Of a DNA stretch of 32,000 nt, positions 20,327 through 32,000 are shown in pieces (the stretch's first letter is position 1; every line of letters starts with the position of its first letter). A model generated the notes under the pieces. That model made no database searches and had not been told where the DNA came from. It was given only the letters and a program-made list of their open reading frames with translations. Origin of the DNA: Crocosphaera chwakensis CCY0110 (lineage in GTDB: Bacteria > Cyanobacteriota > Cyanobacteriia > Cyanobacteriales > Microcystaceae); the NCBI RefSeq assembly GCF_000169335.1, contig NZ_AAXW01000021.1, forward strand, positions 35,175-67,174, in the 5' to 3' direction. A program made the position numbers and the translations under genes.

Positions 20327-20352
20327 TTATATTCTAGGGCTTTATAGCTTAT

Positions 20353-20387: not shown

Positions 20388-20393
20388 CGCCAT

Positions 20394-20401: not shown

Positions 20402-20437
20402 ATCTTGACTGAAACTATCAATCAACCTTCAGTTAAT

Positions 20438-20647
20438 ATGCACTTCACTGGCAAAAGTCTTAGCAAAGAACACATCGAATTGGCAGGGATTGACCTGCCT
20501 CATATATCAGATTGTCTTCTCAAAGAAATCCGTTCAGAAATCAGAGCAAAACTAAAACGAGCCTCGATAACCAACGAAGAAGACTTCCAGGAAATTGTCA
20601 CGGCAACGGTAGCAGAAATAATGCCCCTGTGGGTTTACGAGGACTAA
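20438..20647 (+). CDS. Small hypothetical protein
   Basis: The track ORF starts at TTG 20405, only 4 nt after the motif. The internal ATG at 20438 restores the common motif-to-start spacing. 69 aa. Confidence 0.5.
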   Translation: MHFTGKSLSKEHIELAGIDLPHISDCLLKEIRSEIRAKLKRASITNEEDFQEIVTATVAEIMPLWVYED

Positions 20648-20695
20648 GCTCGAAGCTAGCTCGATATTATTGCAGAATTTTACTCAGTAACGCTT

Positions 20696-21136: not shown

Positions 21137-21147
21137 CCAGTAATATA

Positions 21148-21172
21148 AGCACCTTCACGGTGCTATTTTTTT
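21148..21172 (+). terminator. Intrinsic terminator
   Basis: AGCACC-TTCAC-GGTGCT followed by ATTTTTTT. Confidence 0.7.
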
Positions 21173-21195
21173 GTTAAAGTCAGAATAAAAACTTT

Positions 21196-21771: not shown

Positions 21772-21779
21772 GTTGTAGG

Positions 21780-21787
21780 GCTAGCGC
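21780..21787 (+). promoter_or_regulatory. Island motif GCTAGCGC, copy 4
   Basis: Exact 8-mer, 8 nt after stop 21771 and 47 nt before ATG 21835. Confidence 0.55.
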
Positions 21788-21834
21788 CATTTATTTTGAG
21801 AGATTCTCTCACACAAAATAACCTACAAAACAGT

Positions 21835-22407
21835 ATGAATTTACAAATTACAAGCCTCAATGAAGGTGTGTTTACCCCAGTTTTAGGTACTTGGGAGACG
21901 ATTGAAGTTGATGCCAGAGGGCTGACGAGCTACTACGAGTTCGGCAACGCCAATGTCGGGGTTCAGACACGCGTTCCTAACGCCGGTCGTTTCTCCTACT
22001 TAGGAGGGAGTAACGCCAGAGACATCTTATCGGGACAAGAGGGTTCGTGGATTCTCGGTCGTGATGGCGATGATGTCCTCACTACTTATTCGGCACCTGA
22101 TGATAGTCCAATTCGTTCTGCCTTATACGGTGGAGATGGCAACGACCAAATGACCGCACTGTTCACCGATGCTGTGTTTACTGGAGGTACTGGCTCAGAC
22201 CAGTTCAGAGTCTTAAACGCCGATGTTGTCATTACTGACTTCGCCGACAACGAAGATAGCCTCTGGGTATTGGGTAGTAACCAAGTATCACAGATTCAAA
22301 CTGATTTCGGGTTAGTCCTGGATAATGGAGCTTCCCAGATTCAACTATTAGGAGTTACCGATTACCTTACTCAAGTACAGAGTGGCGGTAGCAGCGTATT
22401 TGTCTAA
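21835..22407 (+). CDS. RTX-like calcium-binding repeat protein, paralogue 2
   Basis: Repeats GRDGDDVLT, GGDGNDQMT and GGTGSDQFR, plus ITDFADNEDSLWVLG. The track start TTG 21796 is less likely than ATG 21835. Confidence 0.65.
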   Translation: MNLQITSLNEGVFTPVLGTWETIEVDARGLTSYYEFGNANVGVQTRVPNAGRFSYLGGSNARDILSGQEGSWILGRDGDDVLTTYSAPDDSPIRSALYGGDGNDQMTALFTDAVFTGGTGSDQFRVLNADVVITDFADNEDSLWVLGSNQVSQIQTDFGLVLDNGASQIQLLGVTDYLTQVQSGGSSVFV

Positions 22408-22424
22408 GATAGCTTAGCTACCAA

Positions 22425-22460
22425 AGGCTTTTACCTTCTCAGGTAAAAGCCTCTGTCTTT
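22425..22460 (+). terminator. Terminator-like hairpin (weak T-tract)
   Basis: AGGCTTTTACC-TTCTCA-GGTAAAAGCCT followed by CTGTCTTT. Confidence 0.5.
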
Positions 22461-22497
22461 AGAGAATAAACTACAAGTAATTTGAGGAGAAAAAGTC

Positions 22498-22788
22498 ATG
22501 AACACCCAAGGCTGCTTAGTACCTGCTCTATTTATGCTTTTAGGGTTTGGCTGGCTTATTCTAAATGACTTGGCTAAAGATCAAACGGTCTTACTTGTGA
22601 GTATCGAACAGTATCCAGACCAAACCTTCACGCTATCCGAGTATTCTCTAGATCAATTAGAGGAAAAAGGTTCATTAAAGATTAAGTGTGGCAAAACGAT
22701 ATTCAATGTCAAAGCCAACGAGGTATCGAAGATTAAGGGAGACTTTGAACTGACTGAAAACGAAGTAACTTCATGCGATCGCTTTTAG
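22498..22788 (+). CDS. Small hypothetical protein with N-terminal signal/TM segment
   Basis: 96 aa. A GAGGAG SD lies upstream, and the hydrophobic segment is LVPALFMLLGFGWLIL. Confidence 0.55.
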   Translation: MNTQGCLVPALFMLLGFGWLILNDLAKDQTVLLVSIEQYPDQTFTLSEYSLDQLEEKGSLKIKCGKTIFNVKANEVSKIKGDFELTENEVTSCDRF

Positions 22789-22807
22789 AAGTTAAGGAGG
22801 TAATCTT

Positions 22808-23011
22808 ATGCCCCACACCTTATGGCAAAGCCACAACTGGCAAAATGCTTCAATTGAAGCAGTTATCACTGCATTATTCGATGTCCCTGAGTTTATTGAC
22901 CCATGCGATATGGCGAAGATTCAACAATATCACCCTACGGCAATTCGAGAATATCAGAAGATATTTTATCGAGGGGACATTCCTGATTATGCGGCGAAGC
23001 CAAAACAGTAG
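22808..23011 (+). CDS. Small hypothetical protein
   Basis: 67 aa. A strong AAGGAGG SD lies 7 nt upstream of the ATG. Preferred over the overlapping 22773-23090 ORF. Confidence 0.55.
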   Translation: MPHTLWQSHNWQNASIEAVITALFDVPEFIDPCDMAKIQQYHPTAIREYQKIFYRGDIPDYAAKPKQ

Positions 23012-23020
23012 AAGACGAGA

Positions 23021-23050
23021 GGACAGGGTTCTACCTTGTCTTTTTTTCTT
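23021..23050 (+). terminator. Intrinsic terminator
   Basis: GGACAGGG-TTCTA-CCTTGTC followed by a T7 tract. A second small hairpin, GTCTACG-GTT-CGTAGAC, follows at 23051-23067. Confidence 0.65.
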
Positions 23051-23075
23051 GTCTACGGTTCGTAGACACTCTCGT

Positions 23076-23083
23076 GCTAGCGC
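23076..23083 (+). promoter_or_regulatory. Island motif GCTAGCGC, copy 5
   Basis: Exact 8-mer, 44 nt before ATG 23128. Confidence 0.55.
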
Positions 23084-23127
23084 AAATTAATTACGACAAT
23101 TCTTCGTAAAATAATCATGTCATATCA

Positions 23128-23340
23128 ATGGATCAATCGCTTACTTTATTTCGCTGTTTTTTTTCCTGTGTGATAGGAATCTCTATAGTAAAAGATGTGA
23201 CAACAAATCAATTCGGAGACATTGCAGCACACATAGCGATAATTATCTTTGCCTTTTCTTGGTGGGCACTTCACGTCCTGATAACGATTCCACTGTGCCA
23301 AAAACTGATTAGGAAGCATTCTGCTCCTAACGAAAAGTAA
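23128..23340 (+). CDS. Small hydrophobic membrane protein
   Basis: 70 aa with two hydrophobic stretches. Confidence 0.5.
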   Translation: MDQSLTLFRCFFSCVIGISIVKDVTTNQFGDIAAHIAIIIFAFSWWALHVLITIPLCQKLIRKHSAPNEK

Positions 23341-23347
23341 TGCCACA

Positions 23348-23379
23348 AAAGAGATATTATAAAATATCTCTTTTTTTTC
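23348..23379 (+). terminator. Intrinsic terminator
   Basis: AAAGAGATATT-ATAA-AATATCTCTTT running into a T-tract. Confidence 0.75.
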
Positions 23380-23406
23380 TAGCTGCTTCGATAAAATAGG
23401 CGTAAT

Positions 23407-23414
23407 GCTAGCGC
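23407..23414 (+). promoter_or_regulatory. Island motif GCTAGCGC, copy 6
   Basis: Exact 8-mer, 36 nt before ATG 23451. Confidence 0.6.
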
Positions 23415-23450
23415 AATTCCTGATGATTGACCTTTAGGGAGCAAGCATCG

Positions 23451-23813
23451 ATGCCAACAGTTAATCTCAAAAACTTCATCATTATTTCTCTTGCAGATAC
23501 TGCAAGACGAGCCGGATTCGGCGATATGCCGGCTACGACAGATTATCAAAAGAAGAAACAGTCCCTTCAGGAACGTAACATATTAAAACGCTTACTAGAG
23601 ATGGTTAAAAATCGTAAGCCAAGCAAGATAGTTGAGGTAAACGACCTTTATCTATCCCCGCAATTTACCATGTTAATTGCGGATGTTTATAGTCAGATAG
23701 AAGGATACAGCAACGATGTCTATTTCTGTCAGAACCTCGCTGAATGCGAAAACCGACTTTCCTTTAATGGAGACATAGAGGCTCTATATAAACAGGTTCT
23801 AATCCACCTGTAA
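23451..23813 (+). CDS. Hypothetical protein
   Basis: 120 aa from ATG 23451. The track start TTG 23427 lies 12 nt after the motif. A GGGAG SD-like sequence lies 12 nt upstream of the ATG. Confidence 0.5.
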   Translation: MPTVNLKNFIIISLADTARRAGFGDMPATTDYQKKKQSLQERNILKRLLEMVKNRKPSKIVEVNDLYLSPQFTMLIADVYSQIEGYSNDVYFCQNLAECENRLSFNGDIEALYKQVLIHL

Positions 23814-23840
23814 ACCTTACTAGACATGGATTTGCACTAC

Positions 23841-23886
23841 CCGCAGCAACTACTATTTTGGTTATAAATTATAGCCCCTGCTGCGG
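23841..23886 (+). repeat. 46-nt inverted-repeat element, copy A
   Basis: CCGCAGCA-N30-TGCTGCGG, 27 nt after stop 23813. Confidence 0.8.
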
Positions 23887-23949
23887 ATCGATAACTGGTG
23901 TTTTCTACTCTTACATTTATTATAATGTTCTCAAGCATTATTTTGAATT

Positions 23950-24783
23950 ATGAAACTATGGACTATTATTAAACGCTTTTTACATCTAGAACCCTGCAAG
24001 GTTCTAGATGATAAGGAAGATACTTCGTATTTAGCTCTGTACCATCGAGGAGTAACCCTCTTTGAATCAGAAAGCTACAAAGAAGCCCTTGAGATTTTCA
24101 ACACCCTTCTTGAAACTTATCCTAACGAAGAAAGAATCTGGTTTAGCAAAGCCCTTACCCTTTACGAATTAGAAAACTACGAAGAAAGCATACTTGCTTA
24201 CGATGCCTTGCTGAACATCAACCCCATCCACGAAGAAGCATGGAACAACAGGGGATATGCGTTATCTCTTCTAAGACGCTATCGAGAAGCTATCCTATCT
24301 TACAATAAAGCGCTAGAGATTAATCCCAATTGTGACAAGGCTTTATTCAATATGGCATTAGCTTACCATCACTTATCTAATTACCAAAAGGCTGTCAATT
24401 GCTATAGTCGTTATGTTGAGATGATTCCAGATGTAGGAGCAGCTTGGAACAATAGAGGTTATGATCTTCTTCGACTAAAGCGGTATCATGAGGCTATTTT
24501 ATCTTACAACAAAGCCATTGAATTAATACCCAATTCCCATGAACCGTTTCTGAATAAAGCCTTGGCTCTACATTTTCTAGGTAAGCACGAAGAAGCCTTA
24601 CTCTTTTGCGATAAAGGTCTAGCAATATGTCCTAACTACGCCCAAGCTTGGTACAATCGAGGCATCTTTCTACATCATCTGAATCGACATAAAGAAGCTG
24701 TTTTTTCGTACAATAAAGCGTTAGCACTAGAGCCAGAAAACGAAGATGCTCAAATAAACAGAGACATCGACTATACTCTGTAA
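23950..24783 (+). CDS. Tetratricopeptide-repeat (TPR) protein
   Basis: 277 aa. About seven 34-aa repeats show the W..G/A..Y..A...Y..AL...P pattern, for example EAWNNRGYALSLLRRYREAILSYNKALEINPN. Confidence 0.8.
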   Translation: MKLWTIIKRFLHLEPCKVLDDKEDTSYLALYHRGVTLFESESYKEALEIFNTLLETYPNEERIWFSKALTLYELENYEESILAYDALLNINPIHEEAWNNRGYALSLLRRYREAILSYNKALEINPNCDKALFNMALAYHHLSNYQKAVNCYSRYVEMIPDVGAAWNNRGYDLLRLKRYHEAILSYNKAIELIPNSHEPFLNKALALHFLGKHEEALLFCDKGLAICPNYAQAWYNRGIFLHHLNRHKEAVFSYNKALALEPENEDAQINRDIDYTL

Positions 24784-24810
24784 CCATTATCCTATCTGGG
24801 TTTTACCCAC

Positions 24811-24856
24811 CCGCAGCAACTGCTATTTCGGCTATAGTTTACGGACTCTGCTGCGG
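24811..24856 (+). repeat. 46-nt inverted-repeat element, copy B
   Basis: CCGCAGCA-N30-TGCTGCGG, 27 nt after stop 24783. The flanks are homologous to copy A. The variant motif ACTAGCGT follows at 24864-24871. Confidence 0.8.
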
Positions 24857-24900
24857 ATCACCAACTAGCGTTTATTAAGGGGCTGTTTATCATTATAGAA

Positions 24901-25229
24901 ATGCCCCAACAACTTAGCCTATTGCAAGATCCAGAAATCCCAGAAATCATAGACGTCTTATTAAATCGAGAAGACTGCGTTTTGGCCGTCAGCATATCTG
25001 CAGGAAAAGACAGTCAGGCTATGCTTAACTGGCTGGCAGATCAACGAAAACGCCGAGGATGGCGTTGTCAAGTCCTAGCGATTCATGCAGATTAGCTGAC
25101 CTCAATGATTTGACCAATGCGATCGCTTACAATAAAAAGGTCTATGGCGAACTCGTAGAACTTGAAAAAGAGTCGGGCTGGACATTTCAGCAAAACCGAG
25201 CATTAAGGTCACTCACTGATATTAAATAA
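24901..25229 (+). pseudogene. PAPS-reductase-like (PP-loop ATPase) gene with an internal deletion and frameshift
   Basis: The N-terminal 64 aa contain the PP-loop SISAGKDS and end at TAG 25093-25095. A different frame (25098-25229) reads DLNDLTNAIAYNKKVYGELVELEKESGWTFQQNRALRSLTDIK*, which looks like a C-terminal remnant. The central part of the family fold is missing. Confidence 0.55.
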
Positions 25230-25241
25230 GAAGGAACCATA

Positions 25242-25679
25242 ATGACACTAATCCAATTATCAAAACGAGTATTTTACATAGCAGCGAACTTGGCAACTAT
25301 ATCAAGCTTGCTAATTTGCGTACTCATCCTTAGTTGCGACGTAGCATTTATAATAGCGACTCCAATTATCAATGGCATTGATGCAATGATTGGAATAGAA
25401 CAGCCATCAGAGAGTTTATGGCAGGTTATCTGCTCTCAGAATTATTTGCCGCCGTTAGAGGGACTGGATTTATTTATGGGAGTGGTAGAAGACAAAGTAG
25501 TAAGCGATATGTTGCATATAAGAGGGATTAGTAATGTCTCACTTGCTATCTCAGGAGAGATTTTCTTCGTAACTAAAGGGTGTTTTCATTTGCTATTAGC
25601 CGCCTTGTGTTGGGCTTCGATTGGACTTTATGGTTTCGGTTTTATCTGGTTAGTAGATAGGTTTGATCATTCTCCTTAA
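25242..25679 (+). CDS. Hypothetical multi-pass membrane protein
   Basis: 145 aa. An AAGGAA SD lies upstream, and there are several hydrophobic helices. Confidence 0.55.
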   Translation: MTLIQLSKRVFYIAANLATISSLLICVLILSCDVAFIIATPIINGIDAMIGIEQPSESLWQVICSQNYLPPLEGLDLFMGVVEDKVVSDMLHIRGISNVSLAISGEIFFVTKGCFHLLLAALCWASIGLYGFGFIWLVDRFDHSP

Positions 25680-25702
25680 CAACCTTGCAAAGCCATTCGA
25701 TT

Positions 25703-25725
25703 AAGACCTACGGGTCTTTTTTTTT
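25703..25725 (+). terminator. Intrinsic terminator
   Basis: AAGACC-TACG-GGTCTT followed by a T-tract. GCTAGCGC follows immediately. Confidence 0.75.
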
Positions 25726-25733
25726 GCTAGCGC
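25726..25733 (+). promoter_or_regulatory. Island motif GCTAGCGC, copy 7
   Basis: Exact 8-mer. It abuts the terminator T-tract and lies 34 nt before ATG 25768. Confidence 0.6.
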
Positions 25734-25767
25734 AGAACCCTTAGATGTTAATCAAGAGGTAGTCTCG

Positions 25768-26220
25768 ATGAACTATCAAGAAAGGTTGCAAAAAATCATA
25801 ACTGAGCTAGAGAATGATGTACGATGCGATCGCATGGGCAAACGCCCTCTACATTTTGCTATTGCATTAAAAGACGTCATAGAAAGACGAGCAGATTTTG
25901 CCGTTTTAACCTATTTACCAAAGGAGTTCAATTTAGTAAACGGCTTTTCTCTCGCCGAGACAATTCTTTTCGTGAGAAATTACTACGGCGAGATGTCGTC
26001 ACATTTTGCTTTGAAAACAAGATTCAGGGACTGGAAATGGCTATTTTCCCTGCGTTTCGACGTAATGAGCTATGGATTTATCCGTGATACTGTCTGGAGC
26101 AGTATCATCGCTCTTATCATCGATGATGACCGGTTTACATTCTCTGATCTAGAGAAGGGACTGTTGCGGGTTTCTGTCCAGTGTGATGATTCCGACACTA
26201 ATTTCTCTATAAATAGCTAG
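25768..26220 (+). CDS. Hypothetical protein
   Basis: 150 aa. An AGAGG SD lies 8 nt upstream. Preferred over the overlapping 25824-26087 ORF. Confidence 0.55.
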   Translation: MNYQERLQKIITELENDVRCDRMGKRPLHFAIALKDVIERRADFAVLTYLPKEFNLVNGFSLAETILFVRNYYGEMSSHFALKTRFRDWKWLFSLRFDVMSYGFIRDTVWSSIIALIIDDDRFTFSDLEKGLLRVSVQCDDSDTNFSINS

Positions 26221-26296
26221 AACTAACCCTTGTCGCTAGAGCGTGTTCTCTTGACTACAATTTCTAAGAATAAACAAGGAACCCCCAAAGTCGAAC

Positions 26297-26395
26297 ATGG
26301 GCTGCGTTTGGCCAGTTATATTAGTAATGCTAATTTTCTGGGCGATCGCATTTATTTTCAAAGGAAGATTAAGAAGAATGGAAGAGACGGGTTAA
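26297..26395 (+). CDS. Candidate 32-aa single-TM micro-protein (alternative to track ORF 26230-26451)
   Basis: MGCVWPVILVMLIFWAIAFIFKGRLRRMEETG is a hydrophobic helix with a basic tail. A degenerate motif GCTAGaGCG (26235-26243) lies 53 nt upstream. The coding frame in this interval is unresolved. Confidence 0.25.
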   Translation: MGCVWPVILVMLIFWAIAFIFKGRLRRMEETG

Positions 26396-26524
26396 GGTGT
26401 TTTTCGATGAACTTTTATGAAAAAAGTTTGATGGCACTCACAATGCTCTAAGTCACCGAAATCTCATCGGCAGAAGAAAGACATTGAGCGATCAGCTTCT
26501 TTTAGGTTGGTAAGAATATCTATC

Positions 26525-26532
26525 GCTAGCGC
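26525..26532 (+). promoter_or_regulatory. Island motif GCTAGCGC, copy 8
   Basis: Exact 8-mer within the palindromic CGCTAGCG, 46 nt before ATG 26579. Confidence 0.55.
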
Positions 26533-26578
26533 TCGTTAGGGGGAATAAATTGCCAAACGAGTAAAGGACTGTAAACAA

Positions 26579-26989
26579 ATGCCTAGAGAAGTTATCCATG
26601 ACGTAGATCGCCCCGACATCAACGGCGTTAAGCCCAAGATGCAAGACATCGCAGATAGTCTACTTGGAGCACTCCCAAAACTTCCCTTTTCATCCTTGAA
26701 ATGTAACGACAACTTAATGTCGTCAATTCACCTGAAAGCAAGTTTTGATGACCGAGCAGAGTGGTCAAATGGGATTTTTGAGAACTCGCTGTACTTCATG
26801 TTTAGTATCCATCCCAAGAAAGGAGAACGATACTACCAAGAGGGCGCACCGGTTAGCGTCGAAATCAACAACAAATCCTACAAAATTCCTACAAAGTTCA
26901 GAAAATACACGGGAACCCCTGAGAAGGCGATCGCCAAAATTGTTACTTGGATTGATAAAGCACAATCGGAGATAGAGCAACAAAGATAA
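26579..26989 (+). CDS. Hypothetical protein
   Basis: 136 aa. An AAAGGA SD-like sequence lies upstream. Overlapping ORFs in other frames are judged spurious. Confidence 0.55.
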   Translation: MPREVIHDVDRPDINGVKPKMQDIADSLLGALPKLPFSSLKCNDNLMSSIHLKASFDDRAEWSNGIFENSLYFMFSIHPKKGERYYQEGAPVSVEINNKSYKIPTKFRKYTGTPEKAIAKIVTWIDKAQSEIEQQR

Positions 26990-27042
26990 CACTTCCTAGA
27001 GAGAACGACCTTTATACCAGCAGGATGATAGCAGAGTCTATC

Positions 27043-27050
27043 GCTAGCGC
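27043..27050 (+). promoter_or_regulatory. Island motif GCTAGCGC, copy 9
   Basis: Exact 8-mer, followed by GGATT as in copy 10, 38 nt before ATG 27089. Confidence 0.6.
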
Positions 27051-27088
27051 GGATTCTATTAGAAAACAAAATTCGAGGAACATTCACA

Positions 27089-27277
27089 ATGAACACTAAT
27101 ACAGAATATTTCTATGACAGTTTCGCTCAACCTTTTGAATGGGACGAACACGGCGCTATGGCAGTCTATCGAGAAACTGATATCGCTTTTGAAGAAGCAC
27201 TAGAAAGCTGGTGTGAATCAGATGAAACAACAGAACCCACCGATCTCGATAAAGAAATAGCCCACCCACCATTTTAA
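27089..27277 (+). CDS. Small acidic hypothetical protein
   Basis: 62 aa, rich in Asp and Glu. A GAGGA SD lies 10 nt upstream. Confidence 0.55.
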   Translation: MNTNTEYFYDSFAQPFEWDEHGAMAVYRETDIAFEEALESWCESDETTEPTDLDKEIAHPPF

Positions 27278-27285
27278 GGCAAAAA

Positions 27286-27314
27286 AGGAAGAGAAACGCC
27301 TCTTCCTTTTTTTT
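27286..27314 (+). terminator. Intrinsic terminator
   Basis: AGGAAGAG-AAACGC-CTCTTCCT followed by T8. Confidence 0.8.
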
Positions 27315-27315
27315 A

Positions 27316-27323
27316 GCTAGCGC
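27316..27323 (+). promoter_or_regulatory. Island motif GCTAGCGC, copy 10
   Basis: Exact 8-mer, 1 nt after the T-tract and 42 nt before ATG 27366 (nrdB). Confidence 0.6.
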
Positions 27324-27365: not shown

Positions 27366-28409
27366 ATGACCTTCACCGAAATAAAACCAAGTCCAATCTT
27401 CAACCCTACCGGAAAGGACAACAAAGAAAATAGACACCTCTGGGGCGGTGACACCACCAACGTCATCAACCTTAATGAAACCCGTTACGGATGGGCCCGG
27501 TCTATTTATCAAACTATGAGGGAATCCTTCTGGGTCCCTCAGCGAACCGACCTGTCCCAAGATAAATTAGATTACGCTAACCTCATTCCAGGTGAACGTA
27601 GAGCGTTGAAGGGTATTCTAAGTTACCTCAATTTCCTAGACTCGGTACAAGTCGCAAACATCCCCGAACTCAGCCGGTATATCACAGCGCCGGAAGCTAG
27701 GATGTGCCTTGCCGAGCAAACATCACAAGAAGCGATGCACGGGGAGACTTATCAGTACATTACTGAGAGCATAATCCCAGAAAATGAGCAGCATGAAGTT
27801 TACGACTTCTGGAAGCAGGATCTTTTACTCCATGAGAGATGTGAATTTATCGCCGGTTATTACCAAAACCTTGCTAATAACCCCACCGGAGAAAACTATT
27901 ATATGGCGCTGATTGGAGACTATCTCCTAGAAGGATTGCTATTCTATCAAGGCTTCTTGTTCTTCTACAATCTTGCCTCCAGTCAACGGCTTGCGGGCTG
28001 TGCCAAACTCATCAAGCAAATCAACATGGATGAATTGACTCATGTGAGCTTATACCAAAAGCTTATCACAGAGGCTACGACAAAGTTCTCCTATTCTGAG
28101 GATGAAATCACAGAGTTATTCCATACAACGGTTGAACGGGAGATTGAGTGGACTAACCACATCTTCGATGGACAAATTCTAGGGGTTAGCAAAGCAAGTA
28201 CCGAAGCTTATACGAAGTATTTAGCTAACTTACGCCTAAAAGCGATCGGTATCCCTGCCATTTACCCCAAAATAGAGAATCCTTATGCCCATTTAGACTG
28301 GGCTGATTTCAAAGGAATCGGCAAATCAAAGGCTGCTTTCTTTGAAACAGAGGTCACAGGTTACGCCCAACCTACTGCCGTCAAGGGGTGGGACAAACTC
28401 AGGGTATGA
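27366..28409 (+). CDS. nrdB: Ribonucleotide reductase class I small (R2) subunit
   Basis: 347 aa. The di-metal ligand pattern is LNFLDSV (Asp), EAMHGETY (E-x-x-H, with the radical Tyr 4 residues later), LLEGLLFY (Glu) and MDELTHV (E-x-x-H). Confidence 0.88.
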   Translation: MTFTEIKPSPIFNPTGKDNKENRHLWGGDTTNVINLNETRYGWARSIYQTMRESFWVPQRTDLSQDKLDYANLIPGERRALKGILSYLNFLDSVQVANIPELSRYITAPEARMCLAEQTSQEAMHGETYQYITESIIPENEQHEVYDFWKQDLLLHERCEFIAGYYQNLANNPTGENYYMALIGDYLLEGLLFYQGFLFFYNLASSQRLAGCAKLIKQINMDELTHVSLYQKLITEATTKFSYSEDEITELFHTTVEREIEWTNHIFDGQILGVSKASTEAYTKYLANLRLKAIGIPAIYPKIENPYAHLDWADFKGIGKSKAAFFETEVTGYAQPTAVKGWDKLRV

Positions 28410-28424
28410 CTGGCTTTGAGCCTT

Positions 28425-28470
28425 CCGCAGCAAGTCCAATATTTACTATAGATAATTGAGGTTGCTGCGG
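28425..28470 (+). repeat. 46-nt inverted-repeat element, copy C
   Basis: CCGCAGCA(A)-N-(T)TGCTGCGG, 15 nt after the nrdB stop. Confidence 0.8.
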
Positions 28471-28524
28471 ATCTTTTAGGAATTAGCGTCCATTGTATTC
28501 GACGTTTATTGATGGACGAAAGTA

Positions 28525-28590
28525 ATGGCTCAAGTTGAATGGCTAGAAACCATACTCTCGGAGTTAGCCACTGTGATATCAAAAAATTAG
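28525..28590 (+). CDS. Candidate 21-aa micro-ORF (or cassette remnant)
   Basis: MAQVEWLETILSELATVISKN*. The degenerate motif TTAGCGTC (28483-28490) lies 34 nt upstream, which is the canonical spacing. A 19-bp perfect hairpin follows directly. Confidence 0.2.
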   Translation: MAQVEWLETILSELATVISKN

Positions 28591-28591
28591 C

Positions 28592-28639
28592 AATAGGCAT
28601 CATAAAGAGAGGCTCGGTCTTCTCTTTATGATGCCTATT
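28592..28639 (+). other. Long perfect hairpin (19-bp stem, 10-nt loop) without a T-tract
   Basis: AATAGGCATCATAAAGAGA-GGCTCGGTCT-TCTCTTTATGATGCCTATT. It occupies the position taken by intrinsic terminators in front of modules E to G. Confidence 0.6.
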
Positions 28640-28773
28640 CATCGTCGAAATCTAACACAAAAAAATAGCTAAGTTTACGGCATTATAAATCAAGCTCTAT
28701 TCCACTCTGGATAAGGATTATAACCTTCCGCAGCAGTGACTATTTTTCTTATATAAAATCGTGGTTGCTGCGG
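28638..28773 (+). repeat. 136-nt island module, copy D (leader plus 46-nt hairpin at 28728-28773)
   Basis: TTCATCGTCGAAATCTAACAC...CTGGATAAGGATTATAACCTT followed by CCGCAGCA-N30-TGCTGCGG. The degenerate motif GCTAGTGC lies 18 nt later (28792-28799). The downstream ORF has decayed. Confidence 0.8.
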
Positions 28774-28906
28774 GTAAACTTCGGGCTGTAGGCTAGTGCT
28801 TAGAATGAAGATGCTTACACCCAATAGTAGAACAAATGGGCTAACGAATATCGTGATCTCCATTTAAAAATACTAAAAACTCTTCCCTAAGATAAACCTC
28901 CCAAAA

Positions 28907-28933
28907 AGAGAAGACATAGCTTCTCTTTTTTTT
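28907..28933 (+). terminator. Intrinsic terminator
   Basis: AGAGAAG-ACATAG-CTTCTCT followed by T8. It is near-identical to terminator 30143-30169 apart from loop differences. Confidence 0.75.
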
Positions 28934-28938
28934 ACCGA

Positions 28939-29074
28939 ATCATCGTCGAAATCTAGCACGAAAAAATGGCTAAGTTTACGGCATTATAAATCAAGCTCTA
29001 TTCTAGTCTGGATAAGGATTGTAACCATCCGCAGCCATAGCTATTTTTCTTATAGATAATAGAGGTTGCTGCGG
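28939..29074 (+). repeat. 136-nt island module, copy E (hairpin at 29029-29074)
   Basis: Same leader as copy D. The hairpin is CCGCAGCC-N30-TGCTGCGG, with one arm mismatch. GCTAGCGC follows 17 nt later. Confidence 0.8.
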
Positions 29075-29091
29075 ATGATAATCAATTTTCC

Positions 29092-29099
29092 GCTAGCGC
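29092..29099 (+). promoter_or_regulatory. Island motif GCTAGCGC, copy 11
   Basis: Exact 8-mer, 17 nt after hairpin E and 33 nt before ATG 29133. Confidence 0.6.
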
Positions 29100-29132
29100 A
29101 ATTAAATATGATGTTCCAAACCTACAGCACAA

Positions 29133-29366
29133 ATGAACAACTACGAAAAACTTCGAGATTTAGTCGGTAATTGCAATCGCCTAGAAGAACAATTCTTCAA
29201 CCGTCTAATTCAGGATGATGTGCCTCTAGAACTCAAACAAATTTGGAATAAGTGGTCGGCGGCGCAAGCCGCGCATCGAGATTTTCAAGGACAGATGCTA
29301 GGGACGAATCTCCACGTAAATGAAAATCAAAAAGAGACGAATAAATATACTACTAATTTACTTTAA
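29133..29366 (+). CDS. Small hypothetical protein, paralogue 1 of a duplicated cassette gene
   Basis: 77 aa, MNNYEKLRDLVGNCNRLEEQFFNRLIQDDVPLELKQIWNKWSAA.... It is about 80% identical over the first ~57 residues (hand alignment) to ORF 29907-30119. Confidence 0.6.
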   Translation: MNNYEKLRDLVGNCNRLEEQFFNRLIQDDVPLELKQIWNKWSAAQAAHRDFQGQMLGTNLHVNENQKETNKYTTNLL

Positions 29367-29413
29367 ACTAGCGTTTATTCATCATGAAAAAAATCGCCGT
29401 TTAAATTAGAAAT

Positions 29414-29668
29414 ATGAATGAAACTGCCATTCCCGAACGTTATCAACCTCTGGGCGAAATTATATCCCGAAAATACATGGGTGCTTTACGTTATTTAGTG
29501 ATCAAACCCATCTATTTTGAAGATAAACCATTCAATTCAATGAGTACCGTTGTGATCGCTTCGTCTCCTGATGAGGCGATTAGGAAAACATTCTTTCATC
29601 GATATACATGGGCGTACAGTACCGAGAATGTACCCCACACAACTGCAACTGAAATCGGCAATGCTTAA
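29414..29668 (+). CDS. Small hypothetical protein
   Basis: 84 aa. The variant motif AACTAGCGTTTATT (29366-29379, core ACTAGCGT at 29367-29374) lies 39 nt upstream. The same 14-mer precedes ORF 24901. Confidence 0.5.
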   Translation: MNETAIPERYQPLGEIISRKYMGALRYLVIKPIYFEDKPFNSMSTVVIASSPDEAIRKTFFHRYTWAYSTENVPHTTATEIGNA

Positions 29669-29682
29669 TTCAATAATCTAAT

Positions 29683-29708
29683 CCTAGCAAACGCTAGGTT
29701 TTTTTTTT
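29683..29708 (+). terminator. Intrinsic terminator
   Basis: CCTAGC-AAAC-GCTAGG followed by T10. Confidence 0.75.
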
Positions 29709-29713
29709 GCAAA

Positions 29714-29849
29714 ATCATCGTCGAAATCCAGCACGAAAAACTGGCTAAGTTTAGGGCATTATGAAACAGCCTCTATCTCTGTCTGGATAAGGATTATAAC
29801 CTTCCGCAGCAGTGACTATTTTTCTTATACAAAATTGTGGTTGCTGCGG
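29714..29849 (+). repeat. 136-nt island module, copy F (hairpin at 29804-29849)
   Basis: ATCATCGTCGAAATCCAGCACGAAAAACTGGCTAAGTTTAGGGC... followed by CCGCAGCA-N30-TGCTGCGG. Confidence 0.8.
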
Positions 29850-29866
29850 ATGATAATCGATTTTCC

Positions 29867-29874
29867 GCTAGCGC
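29867..29874 (+). promoter_or_regulatory. Island motif GCTAGCGC, copy 12
   Basis: Exact 8-mer, 17 nt after hairpin F and 32 nt before ATG 29907. Confidence 0.6.
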
Positions 29875-29906
29875 ATCTGAGGATGATATTCAAAACCATA
29901 ACGCAC

Positions 29907-30119
29907 ATGAGCAACTACGAAAAACTTCGAGATTTAGTCAGTGAGTGCAATCGTCTAGAGGAAAATTTCTTCGACCGTCTAATTCAAGAAGACGTACCCC
30001 TAGAACTGAAAATGATTTGGAACGAGTGGTCGGCGGCGCGAACTAAGCATAGAACCTTTCAAGGACAAATGCTTGGGTTCAACATCCTAGACACCGAAAC
30101 TCACAACGAAGACGAATAA
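29907..30119 (+). CDS. Small hypothetical protein, paralogue 2 of the duplicated cassette gene
   Basis: 70 aa from ATG 29907 (MSNYEKLRDLVSECNRLEENFF...). The track ORF start at 29835 would read through hairpin F and the motif, so it is rejected. Confidence 0.6.
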   Translation: MSNYEKLRDLVSECNRLEENFFDRLIQEDVPLELKMIWNEWSAARTKHRTFQGQMLGFNILDTETHNEDE

Positions 30120-30142
30120 TAAAGAGATATTCTTTTAGAAAT

Positions 30143-30169
30143 GAGAAGCTATGTCTTCTCTTTTTTTTT
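30143..30169 (+). terminator. Intrinsic terminator
   Basis: GAGAAG-CTATGT-CTTCTC followed by T9. Confidence 0.75.
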
Positions 30170-30174
30170 GCAAA

Positions 30175-30310
30175 ATCATCGTCGAAATCCAGCACGAAAA
30201 AATGGCTAAGTTCAGGGCATTACAAACCAAGCTCTATTCTAGTCTGGATGAGGGTTATAACCTTCCGCAGCAATTACTATTTTTCTTATATAAAATCGTG
30301 GTTGCTGCGG
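30175..30310 (+). repeat. 136-nt island module, copy G (hairpin at 30265-30310)
   Basis: Same leader plus CCGCAGCA-N30-TGCTGCGG, directly upstream of nrdA. Confidence 0.8.
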
Positions 30311-30329
30311 GTAAAAATTGATTTAAAAA

Positions 30330-30337
30330 GCTAGCGC
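30330..30337 (+). promoter_or_regulatory. Island motif GCTAGCGC, copy 13
   Basis: Exact 8-mer, 19 nt after hairpin G and 33 nt before ATG 30371 (nrdA). Confidence 0.6.
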
Positions 30338-30370
30338 TCTCCAAACTGAAAATCTACCAATTTAAACCCT

Positions 30371-32000
30371 ATGTCACCAACGGTAATTAAACGAGATGGC
30401 TCAGTTGCAAATCTCGACTTAAACGAAATTCGAGATGCGATCGCCTATGCCATCGAAGGCTACCCACTCAATTCTCTTGAATTAGAGTCAAGGGTGAATC
30501 TCCAACTCAATCAACCTCGGACCACTAGGTTTATCCAAGAAACGTTAGTCAATACGGCAGTGCAATTAGCCACACCGAAAGACCCCGAATGGCTCAACGT
30601 TGCCGGGCGACTTCATATCTGGAATTGGACTCATGAAGTCATTGCTAAACGAGGTTACGGCTATGGCCACTACGATGTGTTTTCCGATACCAATCTGTTT
30701 TCTAAGTACACCAGTCAACTGAAGATTTACAGCCAAAGGGACTTACAAGAAGCAGTAAGCTGGATCGAACCAGAGTTAGACAAAGTATTTGACCATGCAG
30801 GAGCAACTCTGCTGACACAACGGTATTTGAGCGACGATGAACTAATTCAAGAAGTCTTCTTAGTGACCGCTTTGGTATTAGCGATTCCAGAGCGAATGGA
30901 CGAGAGAATGTCTTATGCCAGGGCTTTCTACATGGCGATCGCACACCGTAAAATCTCTCTAGCCACACCTATCCTAGCCAACCTTCGCTTTGAGGGGGGT
31001 TCTGGAACCAGTTGCTTTATCTTATCAGTAGAGGACTCCATTGAGTCTATCTTTGACAATGTGAAGAACACCGCACGGATTTCTCAAGAAGGGGGTGGCG
31101 TTGGTATCAACCTCAGCAGAATCAGAGCCGTCGGCAGTTGGGTTCGCAGTAAACCCAATGTTAGTGGTGGGTTGATGTCCTGGATTCGGATTTTGAATGA
31201 TACGGCGATCGCAGTAAATCAAGGAGGTAGAAGAGCGGGCGCCGTAACCGTTGCCGCTGATATCTGGCACTTAGACATACCCGAATTCCTTGAAATGCGC
31301 TCTGAAGCGGGCGACCAACGCCGCAAAGCTTACGATGTGTTCCCTCAAGTGGTGGTAACAGACAACTTCATGCGTCGGGTTGAACAGGGAGCTACTTGGA
31401 CTTTAGTTGACCCTTACGAAGTGAAACAGGTTCTCGGAATCGACTTACCCAATCTCTGGGGAACCGAATTCGATGATGCCTACGAGCAAATCGAAGAAGC
31501 GGCTTCCATGGGAGACCTTACCCTGGCCCAAACAGTCAATGCTCGGAACTTGTTCATTGACATCCTAGAAACTCAGGTGGAAACTGGCTTACCTTACATT
31601 GCGTTTAAAGATGCACTCAACCGAGCCAATCCAAATAAACACATTGGGATTATTCCCTCTGTCAATCTCTGCTGCGAGAGTTTCTCCGTAGTCGTTCCTG
31701 GAAAACTTGCTCACAGTTGTAACTTAGCTTCGGTAAACCTTGCCCAAGTTGAAGACGACGAATTACCTGAGATTTGTCAGTTAGCGGTGAGACTACTAGA
31801 CAATACCATTGATGTCACCACCGCACCGATTGGAGAAGCAAGGAATCACAACCGTGAGTTACGGACTATTGGAGTAGGCGTCTTAGGCTTAGCCGATTAC
31901 TTAGCAAAGCGAGGACTCCGATATCAAGACAAGCGCGAAATCCGCGAACTATTCAAGGAATTCTCATACCAGTGCTTGATGGGGTCTGTACTTCTCGCCA
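30371..32000 (+). CDS. nrdA: Ribonucleotide reductase class I large (R1) subunit, partial (continues past window end)
   Basis: Not in the ORF track because there is no stop in the window. The frame is open from ATG 30371. It starts MSPTVIKRDGSVANLDLNEIRDAIAYAIEG (ATP-cone-like VxKRDG start). It also contains ...ATPILANLR...SCFIL..., GGGVGINLSRIR, the active-site loop VNLCCES and CNLASVNL. Confidence 0.88.
   Translation, partial: MSPTVIKRDGSVANLDLNEIRDAIAYAIEGYPLNSLELESRVNLQLNQPRTTRFIQETLVNTAVQLATPKDPEWLNVAGRLHIWNWTHEVIAKRGYGYGHYDVFSDTNLFSKYTSQLKIYSQRDLQEAVSWIEPELDKVFDHAGATLLTQRYLSDDELIQEVFLVTALVLAIPERMDERMSYARAFYMAIAHRKISLATPILANLRFEGGSGTSCFILSVEDSIESIFDNVKNTARISQEGGGVGINLSRIRAVGSWVRSKPNVSGGLMSWIRILNDTAIAVNQGGRRAGAVTVAADIWHLDIPEFLEMRSEAGDQRRKAYDVFPQVVVTDNFMRRVEQGATWTLVDPYEVKQVLGIDLPNLWGTEFDDAYEQIEEAASMGDLTLAQTVNARNLFIDILETQVETGLPYIAFKDALNRANPNKHIGIIPSVNLCCESFSVVVPGKLAHSCNLASVNLAQVEDDELPEICQLAVRLLDNTIDVTTAPIGEARNHNRELRTIGVGVLGLADYLAKRGLRYQDKREIRELFKEFSYQCLMGSVLLA

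What the first reader, a model, noticed from the sequence alone, without database searches (positions are those of the whole stretch)
28410..30370. The nrdB-nrdA spacer has expanded to about 2 kb through four 136-nt modules and duplicated small-ORF cassettes
**Observation.** nrdB (ends 28409) and nrdA (starts 30371) are normally adjacent genes, but here they are 1961 nt apart. The gap is built from a repeating unit:
1. A terminator or long hairpin.
2. A 136-nt module, made of a ~90-nt conserved leader (ATCATCGTCGAAATCYAGCACGAAAAAATGGCTAAGTTTACGGCATTATAAATCAAGCTCTATTCTAGTCTGGATAAGGATTATAACCTT) plus the 46-nt hairpin.
3. A 17-19 nt spacer.
4. GCTAGCGC.
5. About 33 nt, then the ATG.

**Copies.** Modules lie at 28638, 28939, 29714 and 30175, and all are 136 nt long.
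- Two drive paralogous ORFs (29133-29366 and 29907-30119, about 80% identical over ~57 aa).
- One (D) precedes a decayed 3' remnant of a third paralogue, with a degenerate motif.
- The last (G) directly precedes nrdA.

The same long upstream module is therefore shared by an essential-type enzyme gene and by a rapidly duplicating unknown small gene. That pattern fits a shared cis-regulatory leader (protein- or ligand-responsive 5' UTR, or promoter) or a recombination-prone cassette system. I do not recognise the leader as any known riboswitch or sRNA.
Basis: seen in the sequence. Interest (0 to 1): 0.7.

Follow-up and report, generated by a model that had tools for sequence, protein, structure and literature searches.

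The report
Shuffling gene cassettes between nrdB and nrdA
The 2-kb gap between two ribonucleotide-reductase genes is a fast-rearranging array of small gene cassettes, each bounded by the same terminator, hairpin and 8-base "gene-start box", on a plasmid-like gene cluster (the one next to parAB on the linear chromosome of Cyanothece ATCC 51142); what reads the signals is unknown.

Summary
Four 136-nt modules lie exactly where stated, each with a terminator upstream and a GCTAGCGC box downstream. Two drive paralogous small ORFs that are under purifying selection.

The module is not a self-contained unit. Two of its parts are signals used across the whole gene cluster:
- A 46-nt hairpin, CCGCAGCA...TGCTGCGG, occurs 7 times in the window, always on the + strand.
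- A box, RCTAGCGY, occurs 15 times, always on the + strand, 29-48 nt upstream of start codons.

The window comes from Crocosphaera chwakensis CCY0110. The same cluster (Sbno-type methylase-helicase, dnaN, small ORFs, nrdB, nrdA) lies next to parAB on the linear chromosome of Cyanothece ATCC 51142, and it is also in Cyanothece BG0011. The three spacers hold different cassette sets and orders. Synteny breaks sit at module or hairpin edges, and the modules show concerted evolution. A distant relative (NrdB 60% identical) keeps the box and one hairpin with a compensated stem, but has no modules.

Best reading: portable expression and insulation signals that also serve as recombination substrates. 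The nearest analogue is the PeSL cassettes of T4-type phages, but there is no sigma-70 consensus promoter and no phage context.

Not supported:
- a known RNA family (no Rfam match);
- an NrdR box;
- integron attC core sites;
- MITE features.

The function of the box is unresolved.

The parts
27366..28409 (+). nrdB (class I ribonucleotide reductase small subunit), left anchor of the array
   Evidence: Pfam PF00268, E 1e-61. 97% aa identity to BG0011 and 93% to ATCC 51142.
28412..28472 (+). Hairpin unit hp0 (46-nt hairpin 28425-28470 plus a small upstream stem GGC..GCC), 16 nt after the nrdB stop
   Evidence: Synteny with BG0011 and with 51142 ends a few nt (BG0011) to about 20 nt (51142) past its 3' edge.
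28482..28590 (+). Degenerate box ATTAGCGT (28482-28489), then 35 nt, then a 21-codon micro-ORF (28525-28590). Possibly a decayed cassette; BG0011 has a perfect box plus a 68-aa ORF at this position
   Evidence: Read from the sequence; BG0011 L002 8068-8315.
28604..28627 (+). Stem-loop preceding module A, with a weak T-run
   Evidence: family D4.
28638..28773 (+). Module A: 90-nt leader plus hairpin 28728-28773
   Evidence: Orthologous to BG0011 L002 9997-10139 and to 51142 L004 12866-13002, which lie at a different position in those arrays.
28792..28900 (+). Mutated box GCTAGTGC (28792-28799) plus an internally deleted remnant of the third paralogue (psi-P3)
28904..28933 (+). Intrinsic-terminator-like stem-loop plus T8
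28939..29074 (+). Module B (hairpin 29029-29074)
29092..29099 (+). Gene-start box GCTAGCGC for P1
29133..29366 (+). Small ORF P1 (77 aa), predicted helical hairpin, lineage-restricted
   Evidence: Homologues found only in CCY0110 and BG0011 among 5.8e9 proteins. dN/dS 0.27-0.30. AlphaFold2 pLDDT 72.5, two helices. No PDB fold match and no Pfam hit.
29367..29374 (+). Variant box ACTAGCGT, 39 nt upstream of orf84
   Evidence: The same variant lies after hairpins at window 24864, L002 5434 and L004 11118.
29414..29668 (+). orf84 (84 aa, unknown function), conserved in BG0011
   Evidence: dN/dS 0.31. No Pfam hit.
29683..29708 (+). Intrinsic-terminator-like stem-loop plus T10
29714..29849 (+). Module C (hairpin 29804-29849)
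29867..29874 (+). Gene-start box for P2
29907..30119 (+). Small ORF P2 (70 aa), paralogue of P1
   Evidence: dN/dS 0.05 against the BG0011 orthologue.
30143..30169 (+). Intrinsic-terminator-like stem-loop plus T9
30175..30310 (+). Module D (hairpin 30265-30310)
   Evidence: Synteny with BG0011 ends 1 nt after the hairpin.
30330..30337 (+). Gene-start box for nrdA
   Evidence: A box lies at the same relative position in 51142 (L004 13456) and in L008 (3180).
30371..32000 (+). nrdA (class Ia large subunit; runs off the window end)
   Evidence: Pfam ATP-cone, lgN and lgC domains.
23826..23896 (+). Hairpin unit upstream of the TPR gene insertion
24796..24871 (+). Hairpin unit downstream of the TPR gene, plus variant box ACTAGCGT (24864-24871)
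13258..27323 (+). Ten further exact GCTAGCGC boxes at 13258, 17790, 20394, 21780, 23076, 23407, 25726, 26525, 27043 and 27316. Each is 32-47 nt upstream of an ORF start, and several directly abut the T-run of the preceding terminator

Best explanation
The nrdB-nrdA spacer is a hyperplastic cassette array. It sits in a plasmid-like gene cluster that, in ATCC 51142, lies on the 430-kb linear chromosome next to parAB.

Each transcription unit of the cluster is built in the same order:
1. a stem-loop, either an ordinary intrinsic terminator or a conserved 46-nt hairpin unit;
2. the 8-nt gene-start box RCTAGCGY;
3. about 35 nt of spacer;
4. the start codon.

The 136-nt module is a Crocosphaera-lineage elaboration: terminator, 90-nt leader, hairpin unit and box. 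It was copied together with a small accessory gene.

Because the modules are long, similar, co-oriented repeats, unequal or ectopic homologous recombination and gene conversion between them duplicates, deletes, reorders and replaces the cassettes they flank. The last module always remains in front of nrdA.

Shown here: the anatomy, the cluster-wide distribution of the signals, their conservation, cassette variation between three genomes, mosaic (converted) modules, and purifying selection on the small ORFs.

Inferred, not shown: that the box is the promoter or transcript-start determinant read by a dedicated, still unidentified factor; that the stem-loops insulate the units; and that the recombination is homologous rather than site-specific.
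For: Anatomy and excess over chance.

The box:
- Counts are 15 in the window, 11 in BG0011 (L002), 11 in ATCC 51142 (L004) and 6 in the distant relative L008. All 43 are on the coding strand.
- About 38 of the 43 lie 29-48 nt upstream of an ORF start.
- There is none in the 13 kb of ordinary chromosomal genes in the window, and none past the ORF before parA in L004.
- Only the 8-mer is conserved; the flanks are not.
- All 8 modules followed by an intact gene have a perfect box. Of 5 modules followed by a pseudogene or no gene, 1 box is perfect, 2 are mutated and 2 are absent.

The hairpin unit:
- Twenty copies were found in four genomes. The outer helix is 94.5% paired.
- The distant copy has the stem CCGCAGGAGA/TCTCCTGCGG, a compensatory change.
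- There are 17 further pair types against 12.5 +/- 1.7 in shuffles (6 of 500 shuffles reach 17).

Cassette variation between genomes:
- Window: hp0, micro-ORF, module A, psi-P3, module B, P1, orf84, module C, P2, module D, nrdA.
- BG0011: hp0, orf68, module 1, P1, orf84, module 2, P2, module 3, junk, module 4, P3, then the contig ends.
- ATCC 51142: hp0, psi-PAPS-reductase, orf168, module 1, P2, module 2, junk, module 3, psi-P3, module 4, nrdA.

Other rearrangements at these signals:
- The PAPS-reductase and orf136-nrdB blocks are in swapped order in 51142.
- The TPR gene insertion is flanked by two diverged hairpin units.
- Other indels end within 4-14 nt of a box.

Concerted evolution:
- The 51142 module S_3 has a leader 92% identical to its orthologue B_4, but its hairpin is 100% identical to the neighbouring module S_4.
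- Leaders within the window are 83-90% identical to each other, against 76-84% to their orthologues.

The small ORFs have dN/dS of 0.05-0.30.

Analogy: PeSL cassettes in T4-type phages combine a promoter and a stem-loop, lie upstream of ORFans, and mediate indels by recombination (PMC2839356; PMC4122927).
Against: - No sigma-70-type -35/-10 match on the + strand inside the leader. Promoter-like hits overall are not above shuffles. Boxes that abut terminator T-runs have no -10-like hexamer upstream.
- No transcript data were available, so promoter, processing-site and operator roles for the box cannot be separated.
- In two cases a sigma-70-like promoter lies upstream of the box: window 13218-13245 and TGTTATAAT in L008. 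That would place the box inside the 5' UTR.
- Between orthologous copies the leader is 76-84% identical, not clearly above neutral expectation (nrdB synonymous difference 0.30). The leader itself may carry little function.
- Breakpoints at repeat edges are expected under both homologous and site-specific recombination, so they do not discriminate between the two.
- Only four genomes or contigs carry the system, and many copies are orthologues, so the counts are not independent.
Confidence: 0.6

Rival explanations
1. Site-specific cassette system. The 46-nt hairpin unit would be a recombination site, analogous to an integron attC, folded from one DNA strand. A dedicated recombinase encoded elsewhere on the replicon would recognise it and excise and insert ORF-plus-hairpin cassettes.
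For: - Hairpin units follow ORF stop codons by 16-28 nt and all share one orientation.
- Synteny breaks lie a few nt after hairpin 3' ends.
- Cassette order is permuted between genomes, as expected from excision and re-insertion.
- The stem is kept by a compensatory change in the distant relative, and the loop sequence CTAT(T/A)TT..TTATA is conserved, as expected for a protein-recognised site.
Against: - No integrase or recombinase gene in the 19 kb of the cluster in the window or in the 21 kb of L004.
- No attC core sites (RYYYAAC/GTTRRRY).
- The TPR insertion junction lies inside the 3' end of an ORF, about 55 nt upstream of the hairpin, within a longer shared stretch. That fits homology-driven exchange.
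- The mosaic, converted modules fit homologous recombination.
Confidence: 0.12
2. RNA-level element. The leader and hairpin would form a structured 5' UTR or intercistronic RNA, for example an RNase III or RNase E processing and stabilising hairpin, or a protein-binding attenuator. The box would be an RNA motif or processing site that defines mRNA 5' ends about 35 nt before each start codon.
For: - The hairpin folds stably (z about -2.8 to -2.9 for whole modules) and has about 19 potential pairs.
- The box keeps a fixed distance to the start codon rather than to any promoter-like hexamers.
- Possible sigma-70-like promoters lie upstream of the box at window 13218 and in L008.
- Hairpins sit between co-oriented genes, as the RNase III sites of T7 early mRNA do (established knowledge).
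Against: - No Rfam family, even at permissive E-values.
- RNAalifold finds only the hairpin, with one compensatory pair in the leader.
- The inner half of the hairpin is only 66% paired, while its loop sequence is invariant.
- Most boxes follow strong terminators, so read-through transcripts available for processing would be scarce.
Confidence: 0.15
3. The box is an operator of the 'stoperator' type. A replicon-encoded repressor would bind the asymmetric 8-mer in every intergenic space and, together with the terminators, keep the cluster silent until induced. On this reading the modules are simply duplicated intergenic DNA that carries the operator.
For: The layout matches mycobacteriophage L5 stoperators: many copies, asymmetric, a single orientation relative to transcription, and intergenic (established knowledge; layout). 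GCTAGC is a palindrome, which suits a dimeric DNA-binding protein.
Against: - The tight 29-48 nt spacing to start codons is not needed for a roadblock.
- No recognisable repressor among the cluster ORFs.
- The box is invariant, whereas L5 stoperators vary around a consensus.
Confidence: 0.1
4. Functionless recent duplication or a MITE-like selfish repeat. The modules would be junk that happens to sit upstream of genes.
For: - The leader is not clearly more conserved than synonymous sites between orthologues.
- Several modules precede pseudogenes or nothing.
- The system was found in only a handful of genomes.
Against: - No terminal inverted repeats or target-site duplications.
- Strict single orientation, and restriction to one gene cluster.
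- The array has been retained in three genomes whose nrdB genes differ at 30% of synonymous sites.
- The hairpin and the box are conserved at 60% NrdB identity.
- Box integrity tracks gene integrity.
Confidence: 0.05

Closest known systems
PeSL (promoter-early stem-loop) mobile regulatory cassettes of T4-type phages (Arbiol et al. 2010, PMC2839356; Comeau et al. 2014, PMC4122927)
   Same: - Repeated composite intergenic motifs that combine a stem-loop (terminator or attenuator) with the expression signal of the next gene.
- Concentrated in hyperplastic regions and upstream of small ORFans.
- Also found next to nrd genes.
- Indels, replacements and reorderings between close relatives have their junctions at the motifs.
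   Different: - No sigma-70 consensus -35/-10; the invariant signal is the 8-mer GCTAGCGC.
- The conserved stem-loop is a 46-nt hairpin with a conserved loop sequence, not a G/C-tract stem.
- The host replicon is a cyanobacterial linear-chromosome or plasmid-like cluster with parAB, not a lytic phage.
- Mini-circles have not been tested.
Integron gene cassettes and attC sites
   Same: A co-oriented array of small ORFs, each followed by an imperfect-palindrome hairpin site; cassette content and order vary between strains.
   Different: No RYYYAAC/GTTRRRY core sites and no intI in the available sequence. Each cassette carries its own terminator and start box. The junction evidence favours homology-driven exchange.
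T4 late promoters (the 8-bp TATAAATA box read by gp55 with gp33 and the sliding clamp)
   Same: A single short invariant box with no -35 element, a few tens of nt upstream of many co-oriented genes. The cluster also encodes its own sliding clamp (dnaN).
   Different: The sequence is unrelated and G+C-rich. No gp55- or gp33-like gene was seen. The TSS is not mapped, so this is an analogy only.
Mycobacteriophage L5 'stoperators'
   Same: Many copies of an asymmetric short site in intergenic spaces, all in one orientation relative to transcription.
   Different: The box here has fixed spacing to start codons and is invariant. No repressor has been identified.

Membership tests
PeSL regulatory cassettes | Repeated composite intergenic motif enriched in variable regions, upstream of ORFans | tested here: met
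PeSL regulatory cassettes | Contains a sigma-70 consensus promoter (-35/-10, with an AT-rich upstream region) | tested here: not met
   No + strand match of at least 9 of 12 positions in any leader. There are only weak -10-like hexamers (CATTAT/CATAAT in the leader, GATAAT after the hairpin) with variable spacing.
PeSL regulatory cassettes | Stem-loop that acts as a terminator or attenuator | tested here: inconclusive
   Stem-loops with T-runs and the 46-nt hairpin are present and fold stably. Termination activity cannot be tested with these tools.
PeSL regulatory cassettes | Indel, replacement or reordering junctions between close relatives coincide with the motifs | tested here: met
PeSL regulatory cassettes | Resides in a T4-type phage genome | tested here: not met
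   The cluster lies on the ATCC 51142 linear chromosome next to parA and parB. There are no virion genes in the 19 kb (window) plus 21 kb (L004) examined.
Integron attC cassettes | R''/R' core sites RYYYAAC...GTTRRRY at the ends of the hairpin | tested here: not met
   The hairpin arms are CCGCAGCA/TGCTGCGG in 19 of 20 copies.
Integron attC cassettes | Adjacent tyrosine-recombinase integrase (intI) and an attI site | tested here: not met
   No recombinase domain in the window ORFs or in the L004 gene table. The rest of the replicon was not seen.
Known cis-regulatory RNA or riboswitch (Rfam) | Match to a curated covariance model at its gathering score | tested here: not met
   0 hits over the window. 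Only sub-threshold noise in 28380-30400.
NrdR regulon | 16-bp NrdR box (acaCwAtATaTwGtgt) upstream of the nrd genes | tested here: not met
   0 matches with up to 3 mismatches in the whole window.
MITE or small mobile repeat | Terminal inverted repeats at the module ends, target-site duplication, both orientations, dispersed distribution | tested here: not met
   The module ends are not inverted repeats. All copies are on the + strand and confined to one cluster.
Stoperator-type operator | Many asymmetric intergenic sites in one orientation relative to transcription | tested here: met
   43 of 43 boxes are on the coding strand and intergenic.
Stoperator-type operator | Bound by the element's repressor, blocking elongation | not testable with these tools
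   Requires binding and expression assays.

The most novel reading that the evidence does not exclude
The cluster uses a private transcription grammar: terminator or hairpin, then the GCTAGCGC start box. A dedicated, still unidentified replicon-encoded factor (a sigma-like protein, an activator, or a clamp-coupled system) would read it, giving stop-start expression of each cassette. The conserved 46-nt hairpin unit would additionally be a recognised recombination site. Together these would form a non-integron gene-cassette capture and expression system on a cyanobacterial linear chromosome.
Probability: 0.15. Interest if true: 0.8.

Novelty: new variant of a known kind. Interest (0 to 1): 0.55.

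Why it matters
- It gives a concrete, sequence-defined example, outside phages, of repeated regulatory modules that drive gene-cassette turnover. The array sits between two subunit genes of the cluster's own ribonucleotide reductase.
- It reveals a strictly conserved 8-nt gene-start box that defines a regulon of about 15 transcription units. In the model diazotroph Cyanothece ATCC 51142 this cluster lies on the enigmatic linear chromosome. Neither the box nor the hairpin matches a curated RNA family or a known operator.
- ATCC 51142 is culturable and has public transcriptomes, so the role of the box (promoter, processing site or operator) can be tested directly.
- The small helical paralogues and the other ORFans in the array are candidates for accessory or anti-defence functions carried by the replicon.

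Tried and rejected
- **DNA similarity to known phages and plasmids.** blastn of the spacer found no match in either collection.
- **Hairpin pattern scans.** There were 0 hits in viral contigs and 0 in metagenome contigs.
- **NrdB-based locus searches.** Viral contigs gave nothing. Metagenome contigs gave only a 29% relative, L003.
- **Exact look-ups of window proteins.**
  - NrdB was found only on one Logan contig, which ends at the repeats.
  - P1 and P0001 are not on record, so the CCY0110 contig could not be extended past the window.
- **NrdA homologue search.** It returned only chromosomal cyanobacterial NrdA at 56-60% identity. This shows divergence but gave no context.
- **Rfam.** No match at gathering or permissive thresholds.
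- **NrdR box.** Absent.
- **Covariance model of the hairpin unit.** It found no extra diverged copies in the window. The weak hit at 22409 is an unrelated terminator-like hairpin.
- **Covariation on 13 within-lineage hairpins.** Not significant. It became modest only after adding the 51142 copies and the distant copy.
- **Mini-ORF or coding reading of the leader.**
  - ATG GCT AAG.. is present in only 2 of 8 copies.
  - Indels break the reading frames.
- **Antisense sRNA reading.** The T-runs are strong only on the + strand, so this was rejected.
- **DGR template/variable repeat reading.**
  - Differences between copies are not restricted to adenines.
  - No reverse transcriptase was seen.
- **Structure of P1.** A two-helix hairpin with no PDB match, which is uninformative.
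- **Literature.** Nothing relevant on GCTAGCGC. The published oriC of the linear chromosome is at 373.5 kb, far from this cluster (PMC4674748).

Full report
**1. Observation**

- nrdB (27366-28409, PF00268) and nrdA (from 30371; ATP-cone, lgN and lgC domains) are 1961 nt apart.
- The repeat finder reports four direct copies of about 197 nt, at 28625, 28926, 29701 and 30162. Their 136-nt cores start at 28638, 28939, 29714 and 30175, and the alignment has 81% mean column identity.
- Each core is preceded by a stem-loop with a T-run.
- Each core is followed after 17-19 nt by GCTAGCGC (GCTAGTGC in the first copy), then 32-33 nt, then an ATG.
- Modules B and C precede the paralogous ORFs 29133-29366 and 29907-30119. 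Module A precedes a decayed third paralogue, and module D precedes nrdA.
- The paralogues evolve under purifying selection (dN/dS 0.05-0.30), so they are real genes.

**2. The module is a composite of cluster-wide signals**

The hairpin CCGCAGC-N-GCTGCGG occurs seven times in the window, always 46 nt long and always on the + strand, against 0 expected. Besides the four module copies, one lies 16 nt after the nrdB stop (28425-28470) and two flank the TPR gene (23841 and 24811).

GCTAGCGC occurs 13 times against 0.38 expected, all on the + strand and all beyond 13258. With the variant ACTAGCGT there are 15 boxes, each 29-48 nt upstream of an ORF start. Several boxes directly abut the T-run of the preceding terminator. 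Only the 8-mer itself is conserved; its flanks are not.

The first 13 kb of the window holds ordinary chromosomal genes and has no box: hemB, an OprB porin, an IS200/IS605 element and znuABC. From 13.3 kb onward there is a one-strand array:
- a strawberry-notch-type methyltransferase-helicase;
- dnaN;
- a mazEF-type module on the opposite strand;
- many small unknown ORFs;
- a TPR gene;
- nrdB and nrdA.

**3. Source and relatives**

The small paralogues match only proteins of Crocosphaera chwakensis CCY0110 (100% identity, an 80.5-kb contig) and Cyanothece sp. BG0011, among 5.8 billion clusters. The window is therefore from CCY0110.

| Relative | Locus | NrdB identity |
|---|---|---|
| Cyanothece sp. 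BG0011, unitig_139 | L002 | 97% |
| Crocosphaera subtropica (Cyanothece) ATCC 51142, linear chromosome CP000807.1, 103.7-124.8 kb | L004 | 93% |
| Metagenome contigs (Logan) | L008-L013 | 60% |

- In ATCC 51142 the same array ends with an ORF followed by parA and parB. The cluster is therefore part of a plasmid-like maintenance region, not an obvious prophage.
- The methylase-helicase is 48% identical to proteins of conjugative alphaproteobacterial plasmids.
- NrdB is 40% identical to that of Microcystis phage Ma-LMM01.
- NrdA is only 56-60% identical to chromosomal cyanobacterial NrdA.
- Nothing similar was found in the phage, plasmid, viral-contig or metagenome collections.

**4. Conservation of the signals**

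All boxes in all loci are on the coding strand: 11 in L002, 11 in L004 and 6 in L008.

In L008, despite 40% NrdB divergence, each unit still reads terminator, T-run, GCTAGCGC, then 31-38 nt, then ATG. This includes nrdB and nrdA.

L008 has no modules. Its nrdB-nrdA spacer holds two other boxed genes, of 178 aa and 119 aa (the latter with a YAcAr domain). It does have one hairpin unit, scoring 27.9 bits with the covariance model. That copy keeps the loop motif and has the stem CCGCAGGAGA/TCTCCTGCGG, a compensatory change.

Counted over 20 hairpins:
- the outer 10-bp helix is 94.5% paired, with three pairs changed on both sides;
- there are 17 further pair types, against 12.5 +/- 1.7 in shuffles (6 of 500 shuffles reach 17);
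- the inner half is only 66% paired, while the loop sequence CTAT(T/A)TT..TTATA is invariant. This suggests sequence-specific recognition as well as structure.

RNAalifold on the modules supports only this hairpin. Whole modules fold with z of about -2.8 to -2.9.

**5. The array is plastic**

blastn synteny maps and direct reading give three different arrays.
- CCY0110 (window): hp0, micro-ORF, module A, psi-P3, module B, P1, orf84, module C, P2, module D, nrdA.
- BG0011: hp0, box, orf68, module 1, P1, orf84, module 2, P2, module 3, non-coding junk, module 4, P3, then the contig ends.
- ATCC 51142: hp0, variant box, a 3' fragment of the PAPS-reductase-like gene (66% identity over 47 aa), orf168, module 1, P2, module 2, junk, module 3, psi-P3, module 4, nrdA.

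The same cassettes thus occur in different orders and subsets. Synteny with BG0011 stops 5 nt after the first hairpin and 1 nt after the module-D hairpin.

Further rearrangements at these signals:
- In 51142 the PAPS-reductase cassette and the orf136-nrdB block are in swapped order relative to BG0011, between two hairpin units.
- The TPR gene is an insertion relative to BG0011, flanked by two diverged hairpin units. Its junction lies inside the shared 3' end of an ORF.
- Other indels end within 4-14 nt of a box: window 23068-23392 and the right end of 25205-26521.

The modules are mosaic.
- The leader of 51142 module 3 is 92% identical to its BG0011 orthologue, but its hairpin is 100% identical to the neighbouring module 4.
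- Leaders within the window are closer to each other (83-90%) than to their orthologues (76-84%).
- This is the signature of gene conversion and unequal crossing-over between the repeats.

**6. Mechanism**

The best-supported reading is that each unit of the cluster carries portable expression and insulation signals: a stem-loop plus the gene-start box. The modules are a lineage-specific elaboration, duplicated together with a small accessory gene, and they act as substrates for homologous recombination that shuffles the cassettes. One module always remains in front of nrdA.

Box integrity tracks gene integrity.
- All 8 modules followed by an intact gene have a perfect box.
- Of 5 modules followed by a pseudogene or nothing, 1 box is perfect, 2 are mutated and 2 are absent.
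- These copies are partly orthologous, so the counts are not independent.

What reads the box is unknown.
- A -10-only promoter read by a dedicated factor (a T4-late-like layout) fits the fixed 29-48 nt spacing to start codons.
- An RNA processing or 5'-UTR motif is suggested by sigma-70-like hexamers upstream of the box at 13218-13245 and by TGTTATAAT in L008.
- A stoperator-like operator fits the strict orientation.
- No sigma-70 consensus is present in the leader.

**7. Comparison with known systems**

- **PeSL cassettes.** The closest analogue is the PeSL cassettes of T4-type phages (PMC2839356, PMC4122927). These are composite promoter and stem-loop repeats upstream of ORFans, and they mediate modular shuffling. 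This system fails two PeSL features, the sigma-70 consensus promoter and the phage context, so it works like PeSLs but is not a member of that family.
- **Integron attC.** Membership fails: there are no core sites and no integrase in the available sequence.
- **Other families tested.** There is no Rfam family, no NrdR box, and no MITE features.

**8. Verdict**

It is a new variant of a known kind of system: recombinogenic regulatory cassettes. It carries two conserved, uncharacterised signals, and it lies in the gene cluster that, in a model cyanobacterium, sits next to parAB on the linear chromosome. Interest is moderate, at 0.55, because the mechanism of the box is open but can be tested directly.

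Noticed in passing
window about 31230 (nrdA); L004 14346-14568; L008 4071-4293: nrdA of ATCC 51142 and of the distant relative L008 is interrupted by a group I intron (Rfam RF00028, 82 and 86 bits). The window's nrdA is intron-less at the same site: L004 13498-14359 and 14620-15389 align to window 30371-31232 and 31229-31998.
   Followed up: partly
window 19574-20151 (- strand); L002 611-1047; L004 4602-5725: The same slot of the cluster holds a different toxin-antitoxin pair in each genome. CCY0110 has a MazF/PemK toxin, BG0011 has a HicA/HicB-like pair, and 51142 has a PIN/VapC toxin with an HTH partner. The adjacent antitoxin-like ORF 19918-20151 is 96% conserved with BG0011.
   Followed up: partly
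window 24903-25229; L002 5471-6376; L004 11194-11340: A PAPS-reductase/PP-loop gene is intact in BG0011 (301 aa). In the window it is internally deleted. In 51142 only a 3' fragment survives, relocated to just after nrdB.
   Followed up: yes
window 23888-24755: The 277-aa TPR gene is an insertion relative to BG0011. It brought its own hairpin unit, and the junction lies inside the 3' end of the upstream ORF.
   Followed up: yes
window 3181-3303 and 11393-11515; also 4170-4198, 6137-6164, 8483-8507: hemB and znuA share an upstream region of about 120 nt at 80-82% identity. It contains TATAAT flanked by ATAATCATT/AATGATTATCATT palindromes that look like Fur/Zur boxes. Similar AT-rich palindromes recur nearby. 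Together with the CobW_C protein and znuABC, this looks like a zinc (Zur) regulon island.
   Followed up: partly
window 6599-8334: An IS200/IS605 element: tnpA (Y1 transposase, 6599-7009, - strand) and a tnpB split into two ORFs (7071-7436 and 7453-8334), so it is probably frameshifted.
   Followed up: no
window 18381-18859 versus L002 353/354: The BG0011 copy of the cluster's dnaN lacks 479 nt that are present in the window and in 51142, so it is probably a pseudogene there.
   Followed up: no
window 28800-28900; L002 10166-10290; L004 13020-13250: The third paralogue (P3) appears to be dead in all three genomes. There is no ATG in BG0011 or 51142 (ATA in 51142), there is a TGG-to-TGA change in 51142, and there is an internal deletion in the window. 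Its module is nevertheless retained.
   Followed up: partly
window 21196-21771 and 21835-22407: Two adjacent paralogous ORFs of about 190 aa carry GGDGND-like (RTX or calcium-binding-like) motifs, but Pfam gives no hit.
   Followed up: no
window 28525-28590: A 21-codon micro-ORF lies 35 nt downstream of a degenerate box (ATTAGCGT). BG0011 carries a boxed 68-aa ORF at this position.
   Followed up: no
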